From Myxococcota bacterium (lineage in GTDB: Bacteria; Myxococcota; XYA12-FULL-58-9; JALHOP01), in contig JBGGMJ010000203.1 in the NCBI GenBank assembly GCA_041288095.1, forward strand, positions 1 to 45,844: a DNA stretch of 45,844 nucleotides. Reading direction: 5' to 3'. Of the stretch, positions 34,933-45,147 are shown piece by piece. The notes under the pieces are model-generated. The model worked only from the letters and a program-made list of their open reading frames with translations. It was not told the DNA's origin and did no database searches. A program made the translations under genes and the position numbers. How positions within the stretch are numbered: the first letter of the stretch is position 1; each line of letters opens with the position of its first letter.

Positions 34933-34963
34933 CGTTCAGCCGAATCAGATGTTCGGCTGAACG
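34933..34963. terminator. Perfect 12-bp hairpin between convergent genes (possible bidirectional terminator)
   Basis: CGTTCAGCCGAA-N7-TTCGGCTGAACG; the loop contains the stop codon of the 34945..36066 gene; no U-tract. Confidence 0.5.
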
Positions 34964-36066
34964 TAAACATTCACCTTGGGGCGAGCGGCATCCGTGAGCT
35001 CGACGCCGACACCGTGCAGCGGGTAACACTGCAATACGGGCGCCTGCGCATCGAGCGTCGCGAATAGCTCGCGCACGGGCTCGCCCGGGTAGCCCCAGCG
35101 CTCGATCATGCCCACGACCTGCTCGCCATGCTCGGCCCGCACCGCCTTGCCCTGGAAGAAGGTCGTGACCTTGAGCGTCGTGGGTCCGCTACCGCGGATG
35201 GCGAACGCCACCTCGCAATCACTCGACGACGCGTCCGATTCGGTGGCCTCGATGAGCTCTCTCGCGTGCTCGAGGCGGCCCTCGGCGATGCCACGCCGCA
35301 CCAAGTCTTCCATGAAGCCGACGGCTTTGGTGCGCGGCGCGTGGACGTACATCTTCACGCGGCCATCTTCATCGGCGAGATCGACGCCGAGACCCGTGAA
35401 CCGCGTGTCGCCGTTGGTCTGGTAGAGCGCGTCGTAGATGCCGGCGTTGCGCTCGGCGTCATTCAAGCCGCAGAGCTCGAGCACCTTCATCACCTTGTCA
35501 CGATGGGGCACCGACGTGTCGAGCCGCGTGTTGAAGTAGAGCTTGAGCTCCACGTCGTCGCCGCGTGGAACGACACCGACGAGCAGACCTTGAGCCAGCG
35601 CCGAAAATTCGGTGAGGCGATCGAGATTAGGAAAGACGGTACGAAAGATGTCGGCGGTCAGCTCGGCCTGCGCGTCGCCACCACCGGACTCGAGGTGGAA
35701 CTGCAGCGTGCCGCGCAACAACATGGTGAGGGCTTCGACGAGCGTGCTGCTGGTGCCGCCCTGCGTGAGATAGGCGAAGCCGCGCGGGCCGTCGCCGGCG
35801 AGCGTCAACACCATCTCCATGATCGCTGGGAGGCCAGACATGATCTGCTGCGCGATCCCGACGACTGGATCGAGCGGTCTGTCGCTCGCGCCACCGATGC
35901 GTTTGCCGAGCCGCTCGCGCACGAGCTTGTAGCGTTCGACCTCGCGCTCGGCATCGCCGCCGCACATCCGCGATAGCGCACGCACGGCCGCCTCGGCGCG
36001 CGCGTCGTATGTCGACAAGGTGTGTTTGGGCATCGCCTGCTCGATCAGGCGGGCGATCTGGCTCAC
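34945..36066 (-). CDS. Hypothetical protein resembling ABBA-fold (DMATS/LynF-like) prenyltransferases
   Basis: Repeated beta-hairpins LVGVV..-ELKLYFN, FTGLGVDL-RVKMYVH, EVAFAI-TLKVTTF, HGVGVEL-KVNVYVQP separated by helix pairs. GTG start overlaps the upstream TGA. The CDS is secure, the family call is tentative. Confidence 0.55.
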   Translation of the reverse strand: MSQIARLIEQAMPKHTLSTYDARAEAAVRALSRMCGGDAEREVERYKLVRERLGKRIGGASDRPLDPVVGIAQQIMSGLPAIMEMVLTLAGDGPRGFAYLTQGGTSSTLVEALTMLLRGTLQFHLESGGGDAQAELTADIFRTVFPNLDRLTEFSALAQGLLVGVVPRGDDVELKLYFNTRLDTSVPHRDKVMKVLELCGLNDAERNAGIYDALYQTNGDTRFTGLGVDLADEDGRVKMYVHAPRTKAVGFMEDLVRRGIAEGRLEHARELIEATESDASSSDCEVAFAIRGSGPTTLKVTTFFQGKAVRAEHGEQVVGMIERWGYPGEPVRELFATLDAQAPVLQCYPLHGVGVELTDAARPKVNVYVQPNI

Positions 36067-38177
36067 TTGGACCGCGACATCGCGAGCAGCTGGACCATCT
36101 GATTGAACAGGCCCTGCGCCTGCATGTAGTTCGAGCGAATGCGCCCATCCACCTCGGAGGCGCCGCGCTGCGCCGAGGAGACGAGCTCGGCGTTGATCTT
36201 CTCGAGCGCCGCCCGCAGGTGCTCGGAGACATTACCGACCAAGCCGGCGCCGGGCATCTTGAAGCCCTGCTCTTGTCCCTGACCTTGCTGACCACCGGGG
36301 CGTTGCTGACCACCAGGGCGTTGCTGGCCACCGGGGCGTTGCTGGCCACCGGGGCGCGCCGCGGCTGCGGGGTCGGCGCCGGGCTCAACGGACTGCGGCT
36401 GCGGTCCACCCGCGCGCGGTTGTCCTGGTCGTGTTTGGCCGGGACGGGTCTGCCCGGGTTGGTCACCGGTGGCGCTGTCAGGCGAAGGCACCGCGCCTGC
36501 TTCCCTGGCATCGGCTCGGCCCGTCTGCTGTCCGCCCGGCGTCTGTTGTCCGCCGGGTGCTTGCGTCTGCCCACCAGGCTGCTGCGACTGGCCCTCTGAT
36601 TGCTGTGACTGGCCCGCCGATGCCGCGGCGTCCATCACGCCCTTCATGGCGTTACCGAGCTTGAACGCTTCTTCGGCGCGCTCGAAGGCCTGGTTCATCT
36701 TCTCGATGGCGATCTTCGCCTTGATGCCTTCTTGCGCGAGCTTGTGCATCGCGTTGCGCAGCTCTTTCATCAAGCGGCGCGCTTCGGCTTCGTCCTTCTG
36801 GAACTGGAACATGAACTTCACGAAGAAGGCTTCCCAGTTGAAGTGCATGCCGTCCCACGACGTCGTCGTGTCGAAGCCGCCACCGTTGTTCACGAATGGC
36901 TCGTCGGTGGTGATGTCCGTCGCGCGCATGGCGCGGCCGCCCGCGCGAGCGCCGCGCAGAGACAAAGTGGCGCCGCCGCTCGATGATTCATTGGGCATGC
37001 GCGCCGGGGCGCGCGTGCTACGGCCGCCGACTGGGCCACCGACGTTGCCGGCATTGCCACCCGGGCGTGGACCCGTCGGCACGTTGGGTCCGCTCGGCGG
37101 GCCGGGCCTCGTGGGAACGGTTGGACCGGTCGGCGTAGGCGTCGTGGTCGTGCTCAGTGTCGTCTGTCCGAGCGGCGTCCGCCCCGAGGCGTCCGTCGCT
37201 TTGGCGTTCGCCATCACCGTCCGCCCAAGCGGAGTTGCTTCGCTGTGGACTGGCGCCTTCGGCTGCTCGCCTTTCGTCGGCTCGCGTTTCTTCGGCAGGT
37301 GGATGGTGTTCTGCGTTGGTGGCCGCGGCACCGTCGGATCGCCGTCCTGTGGCGTGACCGGTCGCCCACCTTCTTCGCCGGGACGCTGCGGGCGCTCTCC
37401 GGTCGTAGGCTGACCCACGGTGGGCCGGTTGAGCGTCGGGCGGTCCGGTCTGTCGTCCGTTGTCGGCCTCCCGGTCGTCGGCCGGTCGGTCGGCATGTCG
37501 CCGGCCTCGCCGCCCTCGGGCAACGGCCGCTGCGGCTTGTCGTCCGCCGAGCGCAAGCCGCGGCTCTGGCCACCGTCGGCGAGCTGACCTTCGTGGTGGG
37601 CGCCTTCGCCTTCTTGTCCGCCATCGCGGAGATGCGATTCGCGCGGCTGCGTTGGCGGCCGCGGCACCAAGGTCTCCGAGTAGTGCTCGACGGTGAGCGG
37701 CGAGGCTTCCGCCGAGCTGGGCTTCAAGAAGCTGAAGATCTTCTCGAGGACGTTGCTGGCGGCCTCGGCGGTGATCGGCGCGTGCGTCGCCGGCGGCAGG
37801 ATGGTCGGTGCGTTGGGGTCGCTGGTGACGAGCTGCCGCTGATGGCGGTTCAGCCCATCGGCGGTGTTCATCTCGCGGGGGCGGCCGATGAGCGTGCCCT
37901 TGTCTTCGGTCTTCTGCGCCTGCAGCGTCTCGCCGGCTACGGTTTTCAGAAACGTCTGCTGGGACTCGGAGGCGCGCTCGGCGCGCTCTGCTCTTGCCTG
38001 CTTGCGCAGCACCATGGCGCGCAGCACGTCTTCGTCGACGGCGCGGCCGGTACGATGCTTGATGTGCTCGCCAAGCGCCTCGACCTTTTCATCGAGCTTG
38101 GACTTCTTGGCGGACCCGTCCGTGCCAGCCGCTGGGGCCAGCCCTTCTCCGGTACGAACGGTGATGTTGTCTGCCAT
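36063..38177 (-). CDS. 704-aa low-complexity (P/G/Q/T/R) protein, candidate T3SS-secreted substrate
   Basis: Strong RBS GAGGAGG; no signal peptide; disordered repeats around helical FNWEAFFVKFMFQFQKDEAEARRLMKELR... and C-terminal amphipathic NYMQAQGLFNQMVQLL. Confidence 0.8.
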   Translation of the reverse strand: MADNITVRTGEGLAPAAGTDGSAKKSKLDEKVEALGEHIKHRTGRAVDEDVLRAMVLRKQARAERAERASESQQTFLKTVAGETLQAQKTEDKGTLIGRPREMNTADGLNRHQRQLVTSDPNAPTILPPATHAPITAEAASNVLEKIFSFLKPSSAEASPLTVEHYSETLVPRPPTQPRESHLRDGGQEGEGAHHEGQLADGGQSRGLRSADDKPQRPLPEGGEAGDMPTDRPTTGRPTTDDRPDRPTLNRPTVGQPTTGERPQRPGEEGGRPVTPQDGDPTVPRPPTQNTIHLPKKREPTKGEQPKAPVHSEATPLGRTVMANAKATDASGRTPLGQTTLSTTTTPTPTGPTVPTRPGPPSGPNVPTGPRPGGNAGNVGGPVGGRSTRAPARMPNESSSGGATLSLRGARAGGRAMRATDITTDEPFVNNGGGFDTTTSWDGMHFNWEAFFVKFMFQFQKDEAEARRLMKELRNAMHKLAQEGIKAKIAIEKMNQAFERAEEAFKLGNAMKGVMDAAASAGQSQQSEGQSQQPGGQTQAPGGQQTPGGQQTGRADAREAGAVPSPDSATGDQPGQTRPGQTRPGQPRAGGPQPQSVEPGADPAAAARPGGQQRPGGQQRPGGQQRPGGQQGQGQEQGFKMPGAGLVGNVSEHLRAALEKINAELVSSAQRGASEVDGRIRSNYMQAQGLFNQMVQLLAMSRSK
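36285..36356. repeat. 18-bp coding tandem repeat x4 (RPGGQQ)
   Basis: TTGCTGRCCACCRGGGCG at 36285, 36303, 36321, 36339. Confidence 0.9.
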
Positions 38178-45069: not shown

Positions 45070-45117
45070 AACCCCTGCTCCTTAGACCGTCCGGTGGCGC
45101 TTGACGGACCCTGGCTC

Positions 45118-45147
45118 TACTTACACATGGCGATGCGGGCCAGGTTG
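45118..45147 (-). promoter_or_regulatory. Motif B promoter
   Basis: Minus strand CAACC-N15-TGTGTAAGTA, 48 nt upstream of ATG 45069. Confidence 0.6.

What the first reader, a model, noticed from the sequence alone, without database searches (positions are those of the whole stretch)
34945..45147. Stand-alone, expanded T3SS translocon cassette in a Myxococcota-like genome
Seen: seven co-oriented genes - tip-like 43888..45069, double-TPR chaperone, three proteins with a disordered N-half, coiled coil and hydrophobic segment, a 704-aa repeat protein, and an enzyme-like last gene. None has a Sec signal, three begin MSS, and no sctN/V/R/S/T/U/J/C or flagellar genes occur in the window. Established: the order tip - class II chaperone - SctE - SctB is the lcrV-lcrH-yopB-yopD arrangement, and Myxococcus xanthus kills prey by contact using an atypical needle-less T3SS together with a Tad-like system. 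Inference: this is a translocon module detached from its apparatus, with more pore subunits than the usual two, possibly for attacking prey or host membranes.
Basis: partly seen in the sequence, partly recalled or inferred. Interest (0 to 1): 0.92.

Follow-up and report, generated by a model that had tools for sequence, protein, structure and literature searches.

The report
Orphan type III translocon operon, Myxococcota
An uncultured relative of the predatory myxobacteria carries a conserved seven-gene operon for the pore-forming tip parts of a type III injection system, with an unusual fused double chaperone and an extra pore protein, but no injection machine nearby.

Summary
Seven intact, co-oriented minus-strand genes lie at 34945-45069. 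All are under purifying selection (dN/dS 0.04-0.23) and fully syntenic in two related MAGs.

What each gene is:
- Gene 2 is a true tandem LcrH/SycD class II chaperone, above NCBIfam's curated cut-off, and each half matches the model end to end.
- Gene 3 is an SseC/YopB-family major translocator, above Pfam's gathering score.
- Gene 4 is a paralogue of gene 3 that lacks the central ~145 residues.
- Gene 5 resembles the minor translocator SseD, consistently but below threshold (9 of 24 family members).
- Gene 1 is tip-like only by position, predicted architecture and language-model neighbours. No sequence or fold match is significant.
- Gene 6 has no known family.
- Gene 7 is a DMATS-type indole prenyltransferase by fold.

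No T3SS or flagellar apparatus gene lies in the 45.8-kb window, nor in the relatives' ~7.4 kb beyond the window's high-coordinate end. Whether the genome has an apparatus elsewhere could not be tested.

The T3SS-translocon reading is supported. "Stand-alone" holds locally only, and the target (prey or host) is open.

Verdict: a new variant of a known kind. It is notable because myxobacterial T3SSs are described as lacking tip and translocon.

The parts
43888..45069 (-). Gene 1 (P1, 393 aa): hydrophilic, Cys-free, tip/filament-like protein (candidate SctA analogue). It belongs to a large uncharacterised family whose C-terminal ~55-65 residues are extremely conserved.
   Evidence: ORF. No Pfam, NCBIfam or PDB sequence match. 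471 representative clusters at E<=1e-3. 109 homologues, all named 'hypothetical', mostly from Myxococcota/Deltaproteobacteria MAGs. AF2 model: pLDDT 73; disordered 1-72; two ~55-60-residue antiparallel helices (235-289, 332-392) with a beta insert, plus N-terminal helical and alpha/beta domains. Foldseek against PDB: 0 hits at E<=1e-3. Atlas neighbours include clusters with LcrV (12% of members, score 0.93) and EspA (12%, 0.91).
42681..43820 (-). Gene 2 (P2, 379 aa): tandem (internally duplicated) class II T3SS chaperone of the LcrH/SycD family.
   Evidence: TIGR02552: 130.6 bits against a cut-off of 104.8, in 2 stretches. The N-half scores 65.4 bits (profile 6-134 of 136) and the C-half 71.0 bits (4-135 of 136) when scanned alone. 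The halves are 25% identical over 122 aa, E 1e-14. The C-half matches PcrH, SycD and AcrH chains in the PDB. Both halves align to AcrH. It is the most conserved gene of the cassette: 94-96% identity, dN/dS 0.045. 9 Cys.
41081..42556 (-). Gene 3 (P3, 491 aa): major translocator (SctE; SseC/YopB/IpaB family).
   Evidence: Pfam PF04888 SseC: 42.4 bits against a gathering score of 30.2, E 8.5e-11. 9 of its 10 database homologues carry PF04888. Hydrophobic segment 227-265, 0 Cys, N-terminus MSS. No P/VxLxxP anchor.
39323..40828 (-). Gene 4 (P4, 501 aa): shortened paralogue of gene 3. It keeps the pre-TM block, one hydrophobic segment and the C-terminal block, and lacks P3 residues ~262-407.
   Evidence: BLASTP against P3: 51% over 99 aa (E 6e-27) and 52% over 85 aa (E 7e-21). 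Weak SseC hit of 18 bits, below cut-off. Hydrophobic segment 397-427, 0 Cys. Orthologues in L001 and L002 are 80-81% identical.
38242..39285 (-). Gene 5 (P5, 347 aa): candidate minor translocator (SctB; SseD-like).
   Evidence: NCBIfam translocon_SseD: E 2.6e-5, 24.4 bits (cut-off 130), covering profile 17-147 of 152. 9 of 24 family members hit the same model at E<=0.01, best 3.8e-6. One hydrophobic segment at 235-260, 0 Cys, N-terminus MSS. No PDB match. hhalign against AopD and EspB is not significant.
36063..38177 (-). Gene 6 (P6, 704 aa): Cys-free Pro/Gly/Thr/Gln-rich protein with three conserved blocks (about 1-170, 427-520, 640-704) separated by variable low-complexity linkers. No known family. 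Probably another secreted component.
   Evidence: ORF. No family. Alignment of three orthologues: blocks are invariant and linkers carry indels. dN/dS 0.16. No relation to P1 by BLASTP or hhalign. No PDB match.
34945..36066 (-). Gene 7 (P7, 373 aa): DMATS-type (ABBA / PT-barrel) indole prenyltransferase-like enzyme. Its GTG start overlaps the gene 6 stop by 4 nt.
   Evidence: Sub-threshold Trp_DMAT and TIGR03429 hits. Atlas: prenyltransferase clusters at score 0.94, structural TM 0.63-0.65. AF2 model (pLDDT 56) against PDB: 30 matches at E<=1e-3, and all those listed (31 of the 500 matches are not printed) are indole/aromatic prenyltransferases, mostly Trp-specific (5-DMATS, IptA, DMATS1, TleC, MpnD, CymD). 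The 4-nt overlap is in the window; the same conserved start is in L001 and L002. 4 Cys.
45070..45221 (.). 152-bp region between gene 1 and a divergently oriented 203-aa gene. It is the presumed promoter region of the operon.
   Evidence: Sequence read. The consensus scan found no sigma-70-like promoter anywhere in 34000-45400, and terminator-like sites are not above the shuffled expectation. The promoter is therefore not identified.

Best explanation
This is a resident chromosomal operon of an uncultured Myxococcota-related lineage. It encodes the secreted, distal parts of a type III secretion system.

Proposed roles:
- P1: a hydrophilic tip/filament-like protein.
- P2: a class II chaperone made as one covalently duplicated chain.
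- P3: a major translocator.
- P4: a truncated paralogue of P3.
- P5: a minor translocator.
- P6: a Cys-free low-complexity protein.
- P7: an indole prenyltransferase-like enzyme.

Proposed mechanism: P2 holds the hydrophobic proteins P3, P4 and P5 soluble in the cytoplasm. Its two TPR palms could take two clients at once, or replace the usual homodimer. A T3SS export apparatus encoded elsewhere in the genome exports P1 and then P3-P5. P3-P5 insert into a target-cell membrane as a pore beneath a P1 platform.

Shown: the family membership of P2 and P3, the P3/P4 paralogy, conserved synteny, purifying selection, and the absence of apparatus genes nearby.

Inferred: the roles of P1, P5 and P6, chaperone binding, T3SS-dependent export, pore formation, and the identity of the target.
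For: - P2 is above the curated LcrH/SycD cut-off (130.6 against 104.8 bits). Each half matches the model end to end. The C-half hits PcrH, SycD and AcrH structures.
- P3 is above the Pfam SseC gathering score. 9 of 10 homologues carry PF04888.
- P4 is a paralogue of P3.
- P5 and 8 further members of its 24-member family hit the SseD model over nearly its whole length.
- The gene order is the same as the annotated acrV-acrH-aopB-aopD.
- The five presumed substrates have 0 Cys and polar N-termini without a hydrophobic core. The chaperone has 9 Cys and the enzyme 4.
- All seven genes are intact and syntenic in L001 and L002, with dN/dS 0.04-0.23.
- Homologues of P1, P3 and P5 fall on contigs of identical length. 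All three share 61173. P3 and P5 share 40264 and 5065. P1 and P5 share 10936, 10788 and 30473. P1 and P3 share 46087. Pairs of them, and in one case all three, are therefore probably linked in more distant relatives too.
- The P1 model has the long antiparallel coiled coil plus globular inserts typical of tip proteins. Its nearest named embedding clusters include LcrV- and EspA-bearing ones.
- There is no compositional anomaly, tRNA, integrase or transposase around the cassette.
Against: - No T3SS apparatus gene lies in the window or within 10 kb in the relatives. None could be looked for in the rest of the genome.
- P1 has no significant match to LcrV/AcrV, EspA, needle proteins or any PDB chain. 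The best fold hits are insignificant (E>=0.056): prefoldin and ClyA-family toxins come first, and PrgI-SipD and IpaD rank 37 and 46.
- For the Atlas search, only 4 of the ten best named hits agree on a family. The tool itself flags this as unreliable.
- P5 is far below the SseD cut-off (25 against 130 bits). It is not significantly similar to AopD or EspB.
- The profile comparisons of P3 with AopB and EspD are weak (E~0.01, probability <5%).
- No canonical P/VxLxxP chaperone anchor occurs in P3, P4 or P5, or in any of 10 P3-family members. Among 24 P5-family members, only P0264 has one isolated, non-conserved match.
- About a fifth of proteins sharing P1's C-terminal module (47 of 218) have a signal-peptide-like N-terminus. 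That does not fit a module used only by T3SS substrates.
Confidence: 0.7

Rival explanations
1. The cassette is the missing distal part of a myxobacterial 'needle-less' T3SS*-like machine. It would act on bacterial prey together with a Tad/Kil-like pilus, not on eukaryotic cells. In this reading the translocators perforate prey membranes.
For: - The nearest relatives are MAGs titled Myxococcota or Bdellovibrionales. P1 and P5 homologues are named from Myxococcota/Deltaproteobacteria MAGs.
- M. xanthus T3SS* acts in prey lysis and is recruited with the Kil pilus (PMC12075869, passages).
- Bradymonabacteria up-regulate SctRSTUV-type genes during predation (PMC7460792, passages).
- P1's C-terminal module also occurs on a LysM-bearing protein and on signal-peptide proteins. 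That would fit assembly in a periplasm or cell envelope.
Against: - Nothing in the window shows predation, a Tad/Kil system or a T3SS*.
- The published T3SS* loci are described as lacking a translocon (PMC3459982 and PMC12075869, passages). No cultured myxobacterium appeared among the named homologues.
- The type of T3SS in this lineage is unknown.
Confidence: 0.2
2. This is a T3SS-independent alpha-helical pore-forming toxin set that descended from translocators. It would be released by lysis, vesicles or another pathway, with P2 acting only as a solubility chaperone.
For: - There is no apparatus nearby.
- P1's weak best fold matches include ClyA, NheA, XaxB, AhlC, SmhA and Hbl components.
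- There are three hydrophobic-segment proteins, as in tripartite toxins.
- Some P1-module proteins use Sec signals.
Against: - All fold matches have E>=0.056 and TM<=0.27.
- Class II LcrH/SycD chaperones are known only with T3SS translocators (review PMC13466201, passages; otherwise established knowledge).
- None of the seven proteins has a Sec-type N-terminus.
- The hits to the SseC and SseD models are to T3SS families.
Confidence: 0.08
3. This is a decaying remnant of a lost T3SS island with no present function.
For: The only support is the absence of apparatus genes nearby.
Against: - All seven ORFs are intact in three genomes that differ at dS 0.4-0.9, with dN/dS 0.04-0.23.
- The chaperone is as conserved as the neighbouring LexA and sigma factor.
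- The order is conserved, and the 4-nt overlap of genes 6 and 7 is kept.
Confidence: 0.02

Closest known systems
lcrGVH-yopBD / pcrGVH-popBD / acrGVH-aopBD translocon operons (Ysc-family injectisomes)
   Same: The order is tip protein, class II TPR chaperone, major translocator, minor translocator, as seen annotated in Aeromonas salmonicida pAsa5. P2's halves are 26-29% identical to AcrH. P2 is above the LcrH/SycD model cut-off.
   Different: - There the operon lies inside the apparatus cluster (ascV directly upstream). Here no apparatus gene is nearby.
- The chaperone here is a fused tandem of two domains (379 aa against 167 aa).
- There is no LcrG-like gene.
- There is an extra SctE paralogue.
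- There is no P/VxLxxP anchor.
- P1 is not detectably related to AcrV.
Salmonella SPI-2 sseB-sscA-sseC-sseD and EPEC/EHEC LEE4 espA-espD-espB
   Same: P3 hits the SseC family and P5 hits the SseD model. P2 also hits the SscA/SscB models weakly. [quoted passage not shown] The SPI-2 gene order is recalled, not taken from a call.
   Different: P1 shows no similarity to EspA. P3 against EspD and P5 against EspB are not significant. Tandem chaperone, extra paralogue, and no adjacent apparatus (LEE layout).
Chlamydial scattered T3SS loci
   Same: T3SS genes split over several loci of one chromosome are documented in Chlamydiales (PMC3459982, passage). A translocon operon away from the apparatus therefore has a precedent.
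   Different: Here it is unknown whether any apparatus exists. No chlamydial sequence was compared. One Atlas neighbour cluster of P1 is a chlamydial CT620/CT621 effector family, which is a lead only.
Myxococcus 'Myxo' NF-T3SS / needle-less T3SS*
   Same: It shares the broad taxonomic neighbourhood (record titles).
   Different: That system is described as lacking secretin, needle, tip and translocon (PMC3459982 and PMC12075869, passages). The cassette here is exactly the kind of part reported missing there. No link between the two was tested.
ClyA-family (incl. tripartite Nhe/Hbl/Ahl/Smh) alpha-pore-forming toxins
   Same: P1's predicted long helical hairpin with a small beta insert gives its best, insignificant, fold hits to these proteins. 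The cassette has several helical proteins with one hydrophobic segment each.
   Different: No hit is significant (E>=0.056). Those toxins have no TPR class II chaperone. P3 and P5 match T3SS families instead.
DMATS-type indole prenyltransferases (5-DMATS, IptA, CymD, TleC, MpnD)
   Same: P7's model matches them at Foldseek probability 1.00, E down to 1.6e-5. Its Atlas neighbours are Trp_DMAT clusters.
   Different: Sequence scores are below the curated cut-offs. The model is of low confidence (pLDDT 56). Those enzymes sit in natural-product clusters, not next to secretion genes. Substrate and catalytic residues were not examined.

Membership tests
Class II T3SS chaperone (LcrH/SycD/PcrH/IpgC; TIGR02552) | Scores above the curated family cut-off | tested here: met
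   130.6 bits against 104.8 for the whole protein. Each half alone scores 65.4 and 71.0 bits, below the cut-off, but LcrH_SycD is the top family for each and is covered end to end.
Class II T3SS chaperone (LcrH/SycD/PcrH/IpgC; TIGR02552) | Small (~150-170 aa) single TPR domain acting as a homodimer or monomer | tested here: not met
   379 aa with two complete domains in one chain. The review passages read mention only separate chains: 0 occurrences of 'fused', and 'tandem' is used only for TPR arrays.
Class II T3SS chaperone (LcrH/SycD/PcrH/IpgC; TIGR02552) | Encoded next to, and binds, the hydrophobic translocators | tested here: inconclusive
   Adjacency is met, since the gene lies directly upstream of P3.
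Major translocator SctE (SseC/YopB/IpaB; PF04888) | Scores above the Pfam gathering score | tested here: met
   42.4 bits against 30.2. PF04888 is precomputed on 9 of 10 homologues.
Major translocator SctE (SseC/YopB/IpaB; PF04888) | Two transmembrane helices after a coiled coil (feature recalled) | tested here: inconclusive
   One 39-residue hydrophobic stretch at 227-265 could be one helix or a hairpin. No second segment reaches the threshold.
Major translocator SctE (SseC/YopB/IpaB; PF04888) | N-terminal P/VxLxxP chaperone anchor | tested here: not met
   Absent from P3, P4 and all 10 family members. [quoted passage not shown]
Minor translocator SctB (SseD/YopD/EspB) | Scores above a curated family cut-off | tested here: not met
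   translocon_SseD scores 24-25 bits against a cut-off of 130. 9 of 24 family members hit it at E<=0.01. AopD and EspB comparisons are not significant.
Minor translocator SctB (SseD/YopD/EspB) | One hydrophobic segment; gene follows the major translocator | tested here: met
   Single segment at 235-260. The gene lies downstream of P3/P4.
Tip / filament protein SctA (LcrV, IpaD/SipD, EspA/SseB) | Sequence or fold similarity to a known tip family | tested here: not met
   No Pfam or NCBIfam hit. PDB phmmer and profile searches found nothing. hhalign against AcrV and EspA is not significant. Foldseek gave 0 hits at E<=1e-3, with PrgI-SipD and IpaD at ranks 37 and 46, E 0.41-0.46.
Tip / filament protein SctA (LcrV, IpaD/SipD, EspA/SseB) | Hydrophilic protein with a central antiparallel coiled coil, encoded just upstream of the class II chaperone | tested here: met
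   No hydrophobic segment. The model has helices 235-289 and 332-392 with globular inserts. Position. Atlas neighbours with LcrV and EspA are a lead only.
Complete injectisome (core SctC,J,N,Q,R,S,T,U,V) | Core apparatus genes present | tested here: not met
   None among 36 other ORFs of the window, among 16 unannotated ORFs against NCBIfam, or among 21 flanking ORFs of L001 and L002.
DMATS / ABBA aromatic prenyltransferase (gene 7) | PT-barrel fold of repeated alpha-beta-beta-alpha units | tested here: met
   30 PDB matches at E<=1e-3; all those listed are indole/aromatic prenyltransferases, TM 0.41-0.50. Atlas structural TM 0.63-0.65. The model confidence is low (pLDDT 56).
DMATS / ABBA aromatic prenyltransferase (gene 7) | Scores above curated sequence cut-offs; diphosphate-binding residues present | tested here: not met
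   Trp_DMAT scores 17.5 against 25, and TIGR03429 scores 21.7 against 163.85. Catalytic residues were not examined.

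The most novel reading that the evidence does not exclude
The cassette is the long-missing tip and translocon of a myxobacterial-type (early-branching, 'needle-less') T3SS, and it is used to perforate bacterial prey. If so, contact-dependent translocation would not be a late, eukaryote-directed invention.

A bolder add-on: the translationally coupled DMATS-type enzyme P7 prenylates a tryptophan of a secreted component. 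Candidates are P6, whose only two Trp lie in its invariant aromatic block, or the conserved single Trp of P3 or P5. That would give a lipid-modified translocon.
Probability: 0.12. Interest if true: 0.9.

Novelty: new variant of a known kind. Interest (0 to 1): 0.58.

Why it matters
Published accounts describe myxobacterial T3SSs as lacking needle, tip and translocon. This covers the passages read in PMC3459982, PMC12075869 and PMC11509652, and one supplementary table of the last paper, which has no SseC, LcrH, SycD or translocon entries. Those accounts build evolutionary and predation models on that absence. The authors of PMC3459982 themselves note that tip and translocon homologues may have been missed because they evolve fast.

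Three full-text searches for a translocon or injectisome in Myxococcota or Myxococcales returned 3, 2 and 4 papers. None of those read reports a translocon in the group; PMC13543475, PMC12288465 and PMC10721388 were seen only in the search listings.

A conserved, selected translocon operon in an uncultured Myxococcota-related clade shows that such genes exist in the wider group. It also provides concrete families to look for in cultivable predators: the P1 family (471 clusters), the tandem chaperone, and the P3 and P5 families.

The covalently duplicated class II chaperone is a natural experiment on the debated role of chaperone dimerisation. The third hydrophobic subunit departs from the usual two-translocator pore; that two is usual is recalled knowledge.

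Tried and rejected
1. P1's C-terminus as a needle (SctF)-like helix. This was my own lead and I reject it as unsupported.
 - PF09392 was hit by only 3 of 150 family members (best E 1.3e-4). That is the same level as coiled-coil noise such as ATG17_like, hit by 7 of 150.
 - None of 61 short members matched at E<=0.002.
 - hhalign against AscF (E 0.025, probability 2%) and EscF (E 0.35) is not significant.
 - A C-terminal HMM scored AscF at E 0.73.

2. P6 as a distant paralogue of P1: BLASTP and hhalign are negative.

3. P5 as a paralogue of P3: negative.

4. Other copies of the P1 module, or a small needle-like ORF, in the window, L001 or L002: none.

5. Promoter and terminator consensus: nothing above the shuffled expectation.

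6. RNA families and tRNAs: none in the window. The 252-bp gap between genes 3 and 4 holds no convincing ORF.

7. PDB sequence searches with the P3, P5 and P6 profiles found nothing meaningful.

8. Complex prediction (P2 with N-terminal pieces of P3 and P5) was unavailable.

10. Not checked:
 - the collections metagenome contigs and viral contigs (closed);
 - the supplements of PMC7460792 and PMC3459982 (not opened).

11. A mobile-island origin was considered and not supported. GC is even. There is no integrase, transposase or tRNA. The flanks are the same in three genomes.

Full report
**What is there**

The minus strand of 34945-45069 carries seven ORFs in one direction. I call them P1 to P7:

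| Gene | Coordinates | Length |
|---|---|---|
| P1 | 43888-45069 | 393 aa |
| P2 | 42681-43820 | 379 aa |
| P3 | 41081-42556 | 491 aa |
| P4 | 39323-40828 | 501 aa |
| P5 | 38242-39285 | 347 aa |
| P6 | 36063-38177 | 704 aa |
| P7 | 34945-36066 | 373 aa |

- The gaps between successive genes are 67, 124, 252, 37 and 64 nt. P7's start overlaps P6's stop by 4 nt.
- All seven show the GC1/GC2/GC3 pattern of coding frames in this ~65% GC sequence.
- The cassette's GC (0.63-0.69) does not differ from the rest of the window.

**Are the genes real and maintained?**

- One scan of 185,579 species genomes with a P3-family alignment returned only two loci, both MAG contigs. L001 is CAZAER010000013.1, titled uncultured Bdellovibrionales. 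L002 is JALHOP010000014.1, titled Myxococcota bacterium.
- Both loci hold all seven genes in the same order, between the same flanking genes.
- Protein identities to the window are 79-96%; the chaperone is highest at 94-96%.
- Nei-Gojobori dN/dS is 0.04-0.23 at dS 0.4-0.9.
- A decaying remnant is therefore very unlikely.

**Family assignments**

P2 (chaperone):
- It scores 130.6 bits on NCBIfam TIGR02552 (LcrH/SycD chaperone, cut-off 104.8) in two stretches.
- Scanned apart, the N-half matches profile positions 6-134 of 136 (65.4 bits) and the C-half 4-135 of 136 (71.0 bits).
- The halves are 25% identical to each other (E 1e-14). Both align to Aeromonas AcrH.
- The C-half finds PcrH, SycD and AcrH among solved structures.
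- P2 is thus a genuine tandem class II chaperone.

P3 and P4 (major translocator and its paralogue):
- P3 scores 42.4 bits on Pfam SseC (gathering score 30.2).
- Only 10 homologues were found among 8000 scored candidates; 9 of them carry PF04888.
- P4 shares two blocks with P3: 51% over 99 aa and 52% over 85 aa. It lacks the roughly 145 residues between them.

P5 (candidate minor translocator):
- It hits the SseD translocon model over profile positions 17-147 of 152, but at only 24-25 bits against a cut-off of 130.
- In its family of 24 proteins, 9 hit that model at E<=0.01.

Shared properties of the presumed secreted proteins:
- P3, P4 and P5 each have one strong hydrophobic segment.
- P1, P3, P4, P5 and P6 have no cysteine, whereas P2 has 9 and P7 has 4.
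- The canonical P/VxLxxP chaperone anchor is absent from P3, P4 and P5 and from the P3 family; one of 24 P5-family members (P0264) has an isolated match.
- Each family has its own conserved proline motif in the N-terminal part.

**P1**

- No Pfam, NCBIfam or PDB sequence match was found.
- An exhaustive HMMER search found 471 representative clusters at E<=1e-3.
- A second search listed 109 proteins. All are named hypothetical where a name was given, mostly from MAGs labelled Myxococcota or Deltaproteobacteria.
- The AlphaFold model was built from 39 sequences (pLDDT 73, pTM 0.51). It shows:
  - a disordered N-terminus (1-72);
  - a small alpha/beta domain;
  - a helical bundle;
  - two long antiparallel helices (235-289 and 332-392) bracketing a beta insert.
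- That is the general build of tip proteins, but Foldseek found no PDB match at E<=1e-3.
- The weak top hits were prefoldin and ClyA-family toxins. PrgI-SipD and IpaD came at ranks 37 and 46.
- Profile comparisons with AcrV and EspA were negative.
- The Atlas language-model search placed clusters partly annotated LcrV (12% of members, score 0.93) and EspA (12%, 0.91), and a chlamydial T3SS effector family (0.91), among the nearest named clusters. By the tool's own criterion (4 of 10 agreeing) this is only a lead.
- 'Tip-like' therefore rests on gene position, architecture and that lead.

**P6 and P7**

- P6 has no family. It consists of three blocks that are invariant among the three genomes, joined by Pro/Gly/Thr/Gln-rich linkers that vary by indels.
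- P7 is an indole prenyltransferase by fold. There were 30 PDB matches at E<=1e-3, and all those listed are indole/aromatic prenyltransferases (5-DMATS, IptA, DMATS1, TleC, MpnD, CymD and others). The model is of low confidence (pLDDT 56).
- The Atlas agrees on P7 (score 0.94, TM 0.63-0.65). Its sequence scores are below the curated cut-offs.
- Its coupling to P6 is conserved: the same start is present in L001 and L002.

**Surroundings**

A Pfam scan of 36 other ORFs in the window gave the following:
- a lipid A acyltransferase;
- SPFH proteins;
- cytochrome c maturation genes;
- a peptide ABC system;
- a Tol-Pal cluster;
- a Ser/Thr kinase;
- ArsA-like ATPases;
- a DUF1588/DUF1552 pair;
- LexA;
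- a sigma factor.

- No T3SS or flagellar apparatus gene was found. NCBIfam on the unannotated ORFs added none.
- Beyond the window's end, the two relatives carry polyamine genes (BpsA_C, AdoMet decarboxylase) and unannotated ORFs, again with no apparatus.
- There are no tRNAs, Rfam families, integrases or transposases.
- The cassette is therefore locally orphan and resident.

**Wider distribution**

- Homologues of P1, P3 and P5 sit on contigs of identical lengths. All three share 61173; P3 and P5 share 40264 and 5065; P1 and P5 share 10936, 10788 and 30473; P1 and P3 share 46087.
- Pairs of the three families, and in one case all three, are therefore probably linked in more distant relatives as well.
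- No P4-like paralogue other than L002's appeared, so the duplication may be recent. The search method is word-limited, so this is tentative.

**Comparison with what is known**

- The order P1-P2-P3-(P4)-P5 is that of acrV-acrH-aopB-aopD. It is also, from recall, that of sseB-sscA-sseC-sseD.
- It differs from known operons in five ways:
  1. no neighbouring apparatus;
  2. a fused double chaperone;
  3. a third hydrophobic protein;
  4. a tip-position protein of a new family;
  5. two extra genes, one of them a prenyltransferase.
- Scattered T3SS loci have a precedent in Chlamydiales (PMC3459982, passage).
- For myxobacteria, the passages I read state that the T3SS lacks secretin, needle, tip and translocon. 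PMC3459982 adds the caveat that fast-evolving tip and translocon genes could have been missed (PMC3459982; PMC12075869; PMC11509652).
- Searches for Myxococcota or Myxococcales with translocon, translocator or injectisome returned 3, 2 and 4 papers. None of those read describes such a cassette.
- One supplementary table on bradymonabacterial T3SS genes has no SseC, LcrH, SycD or translocon entry.

**Mechanism, and how sure**

- I consider it about 85% likely that this is, by descent, a T3SS translocon module.
- I consider it about 70% likely that it works as one: P2-chaperoned export through a T3SS encoded elsewhere, followed by pore formation by P3-P5 under a P1 platform.
- The target, prey bacterium or eukaryote, is open.
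- The main counter-evidence is the missing apparatus, the unproven identity of P1, and an unexplained fact about P1's C-terminal module. That module also ends proteins with signal-peptide-like N-termini (47 of 218, crude test) and occurs inside four large proteins.

**Verdict**

- 'Stand-alone' and the predatory role remain inference.
- It is a new variant of a known kind, of moderate to high interest for T3SS evolution and for the biology of uncultured Myxococcota.

Noticed in passing
window 43888-44085 (last ~65 codons of gene 1); proteins P0012-P0240: The C-terminal ~55-65 residues of P1 recur at 60-80% identity at the very C-terminus of hundreds of otherwise unrelated proteins of 72-1006 aa. 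The core motif lies exactly 34 residues from the end in 172 of 230 proteins. 109 of 218 start M-[STGA]-[STGA] like P1, and 47 of 218 have a signal-peptide-like N-terminus. Four large proteins carry the module internally. Single members carry LysM, PAN_4 or TIG domains. Its partner and function are unknown.
   Followed up: partly
window 34945-36066 and 36063-38177: A DMATS-type indole prenyltransferase gene is translationally coupled (4-nt overlap, kept in three genomes) to the Cys-free protein P6. P6's only two tryptophans lie in its invariant aromatic block. P3 and P5 each have a single, (nearly) invariant Trp. Protein Trp-prenylation was not tested.
   Followed up: partly
proteins P0257-P0262, P0265: A shorter (268-301 aa) subfamily is related to the C-terminal half of P5 (46-55% identity over about half of P5). 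One member (P0259) bears the same locus-tag prefix as the record that is 100% identical to P5 (P0242). The same or a near-identical genome may therefore hold a second P5-like gene at another locus.
   Followed up: no
window 45222-45833 (+): A divergently oriented 203-aa protein with an acidic tail, 94-96% identical in L001 and L002. It has no Pfam or NCBIfam family. In the relatives it is followed by polyamine genes (BpsA_C, AdoMet decarboxylase).
   Followed up: partly
window 34189-34935: Two overlapping antisense ORFs lie between gene 7 and the sigma-factor gene. The plus-strand frame (34207-34920) is better conserved (83-84% against 70%). It has only a weak Pro-rich TonB-like hit.
   Followed up: partly
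window 40829-41080: A 252-bp gap between genes 3 and 4, the longest in the operon. It contains no Rfam family and no convincing ORF. An internal promoter is possible but was not found.
   Followed up: partly
window 1-984 (-): An ORF running off the window start, with a sub-threshold match to ExeM/NucH extracellular endonucleases (E 1.2e-10, 40.9 bits against a cut-off of 300).
   Followed up: no
window 27144-29305 (-) and 24059-26044 (+): Two adjacent ArsA/ParA-type ATPase genes and a 661-aa protein with an N-terminal MJ0042-type zinc ribbon. An ArsA-like gene also lies beyond lexA in L001.
   Followed up: no
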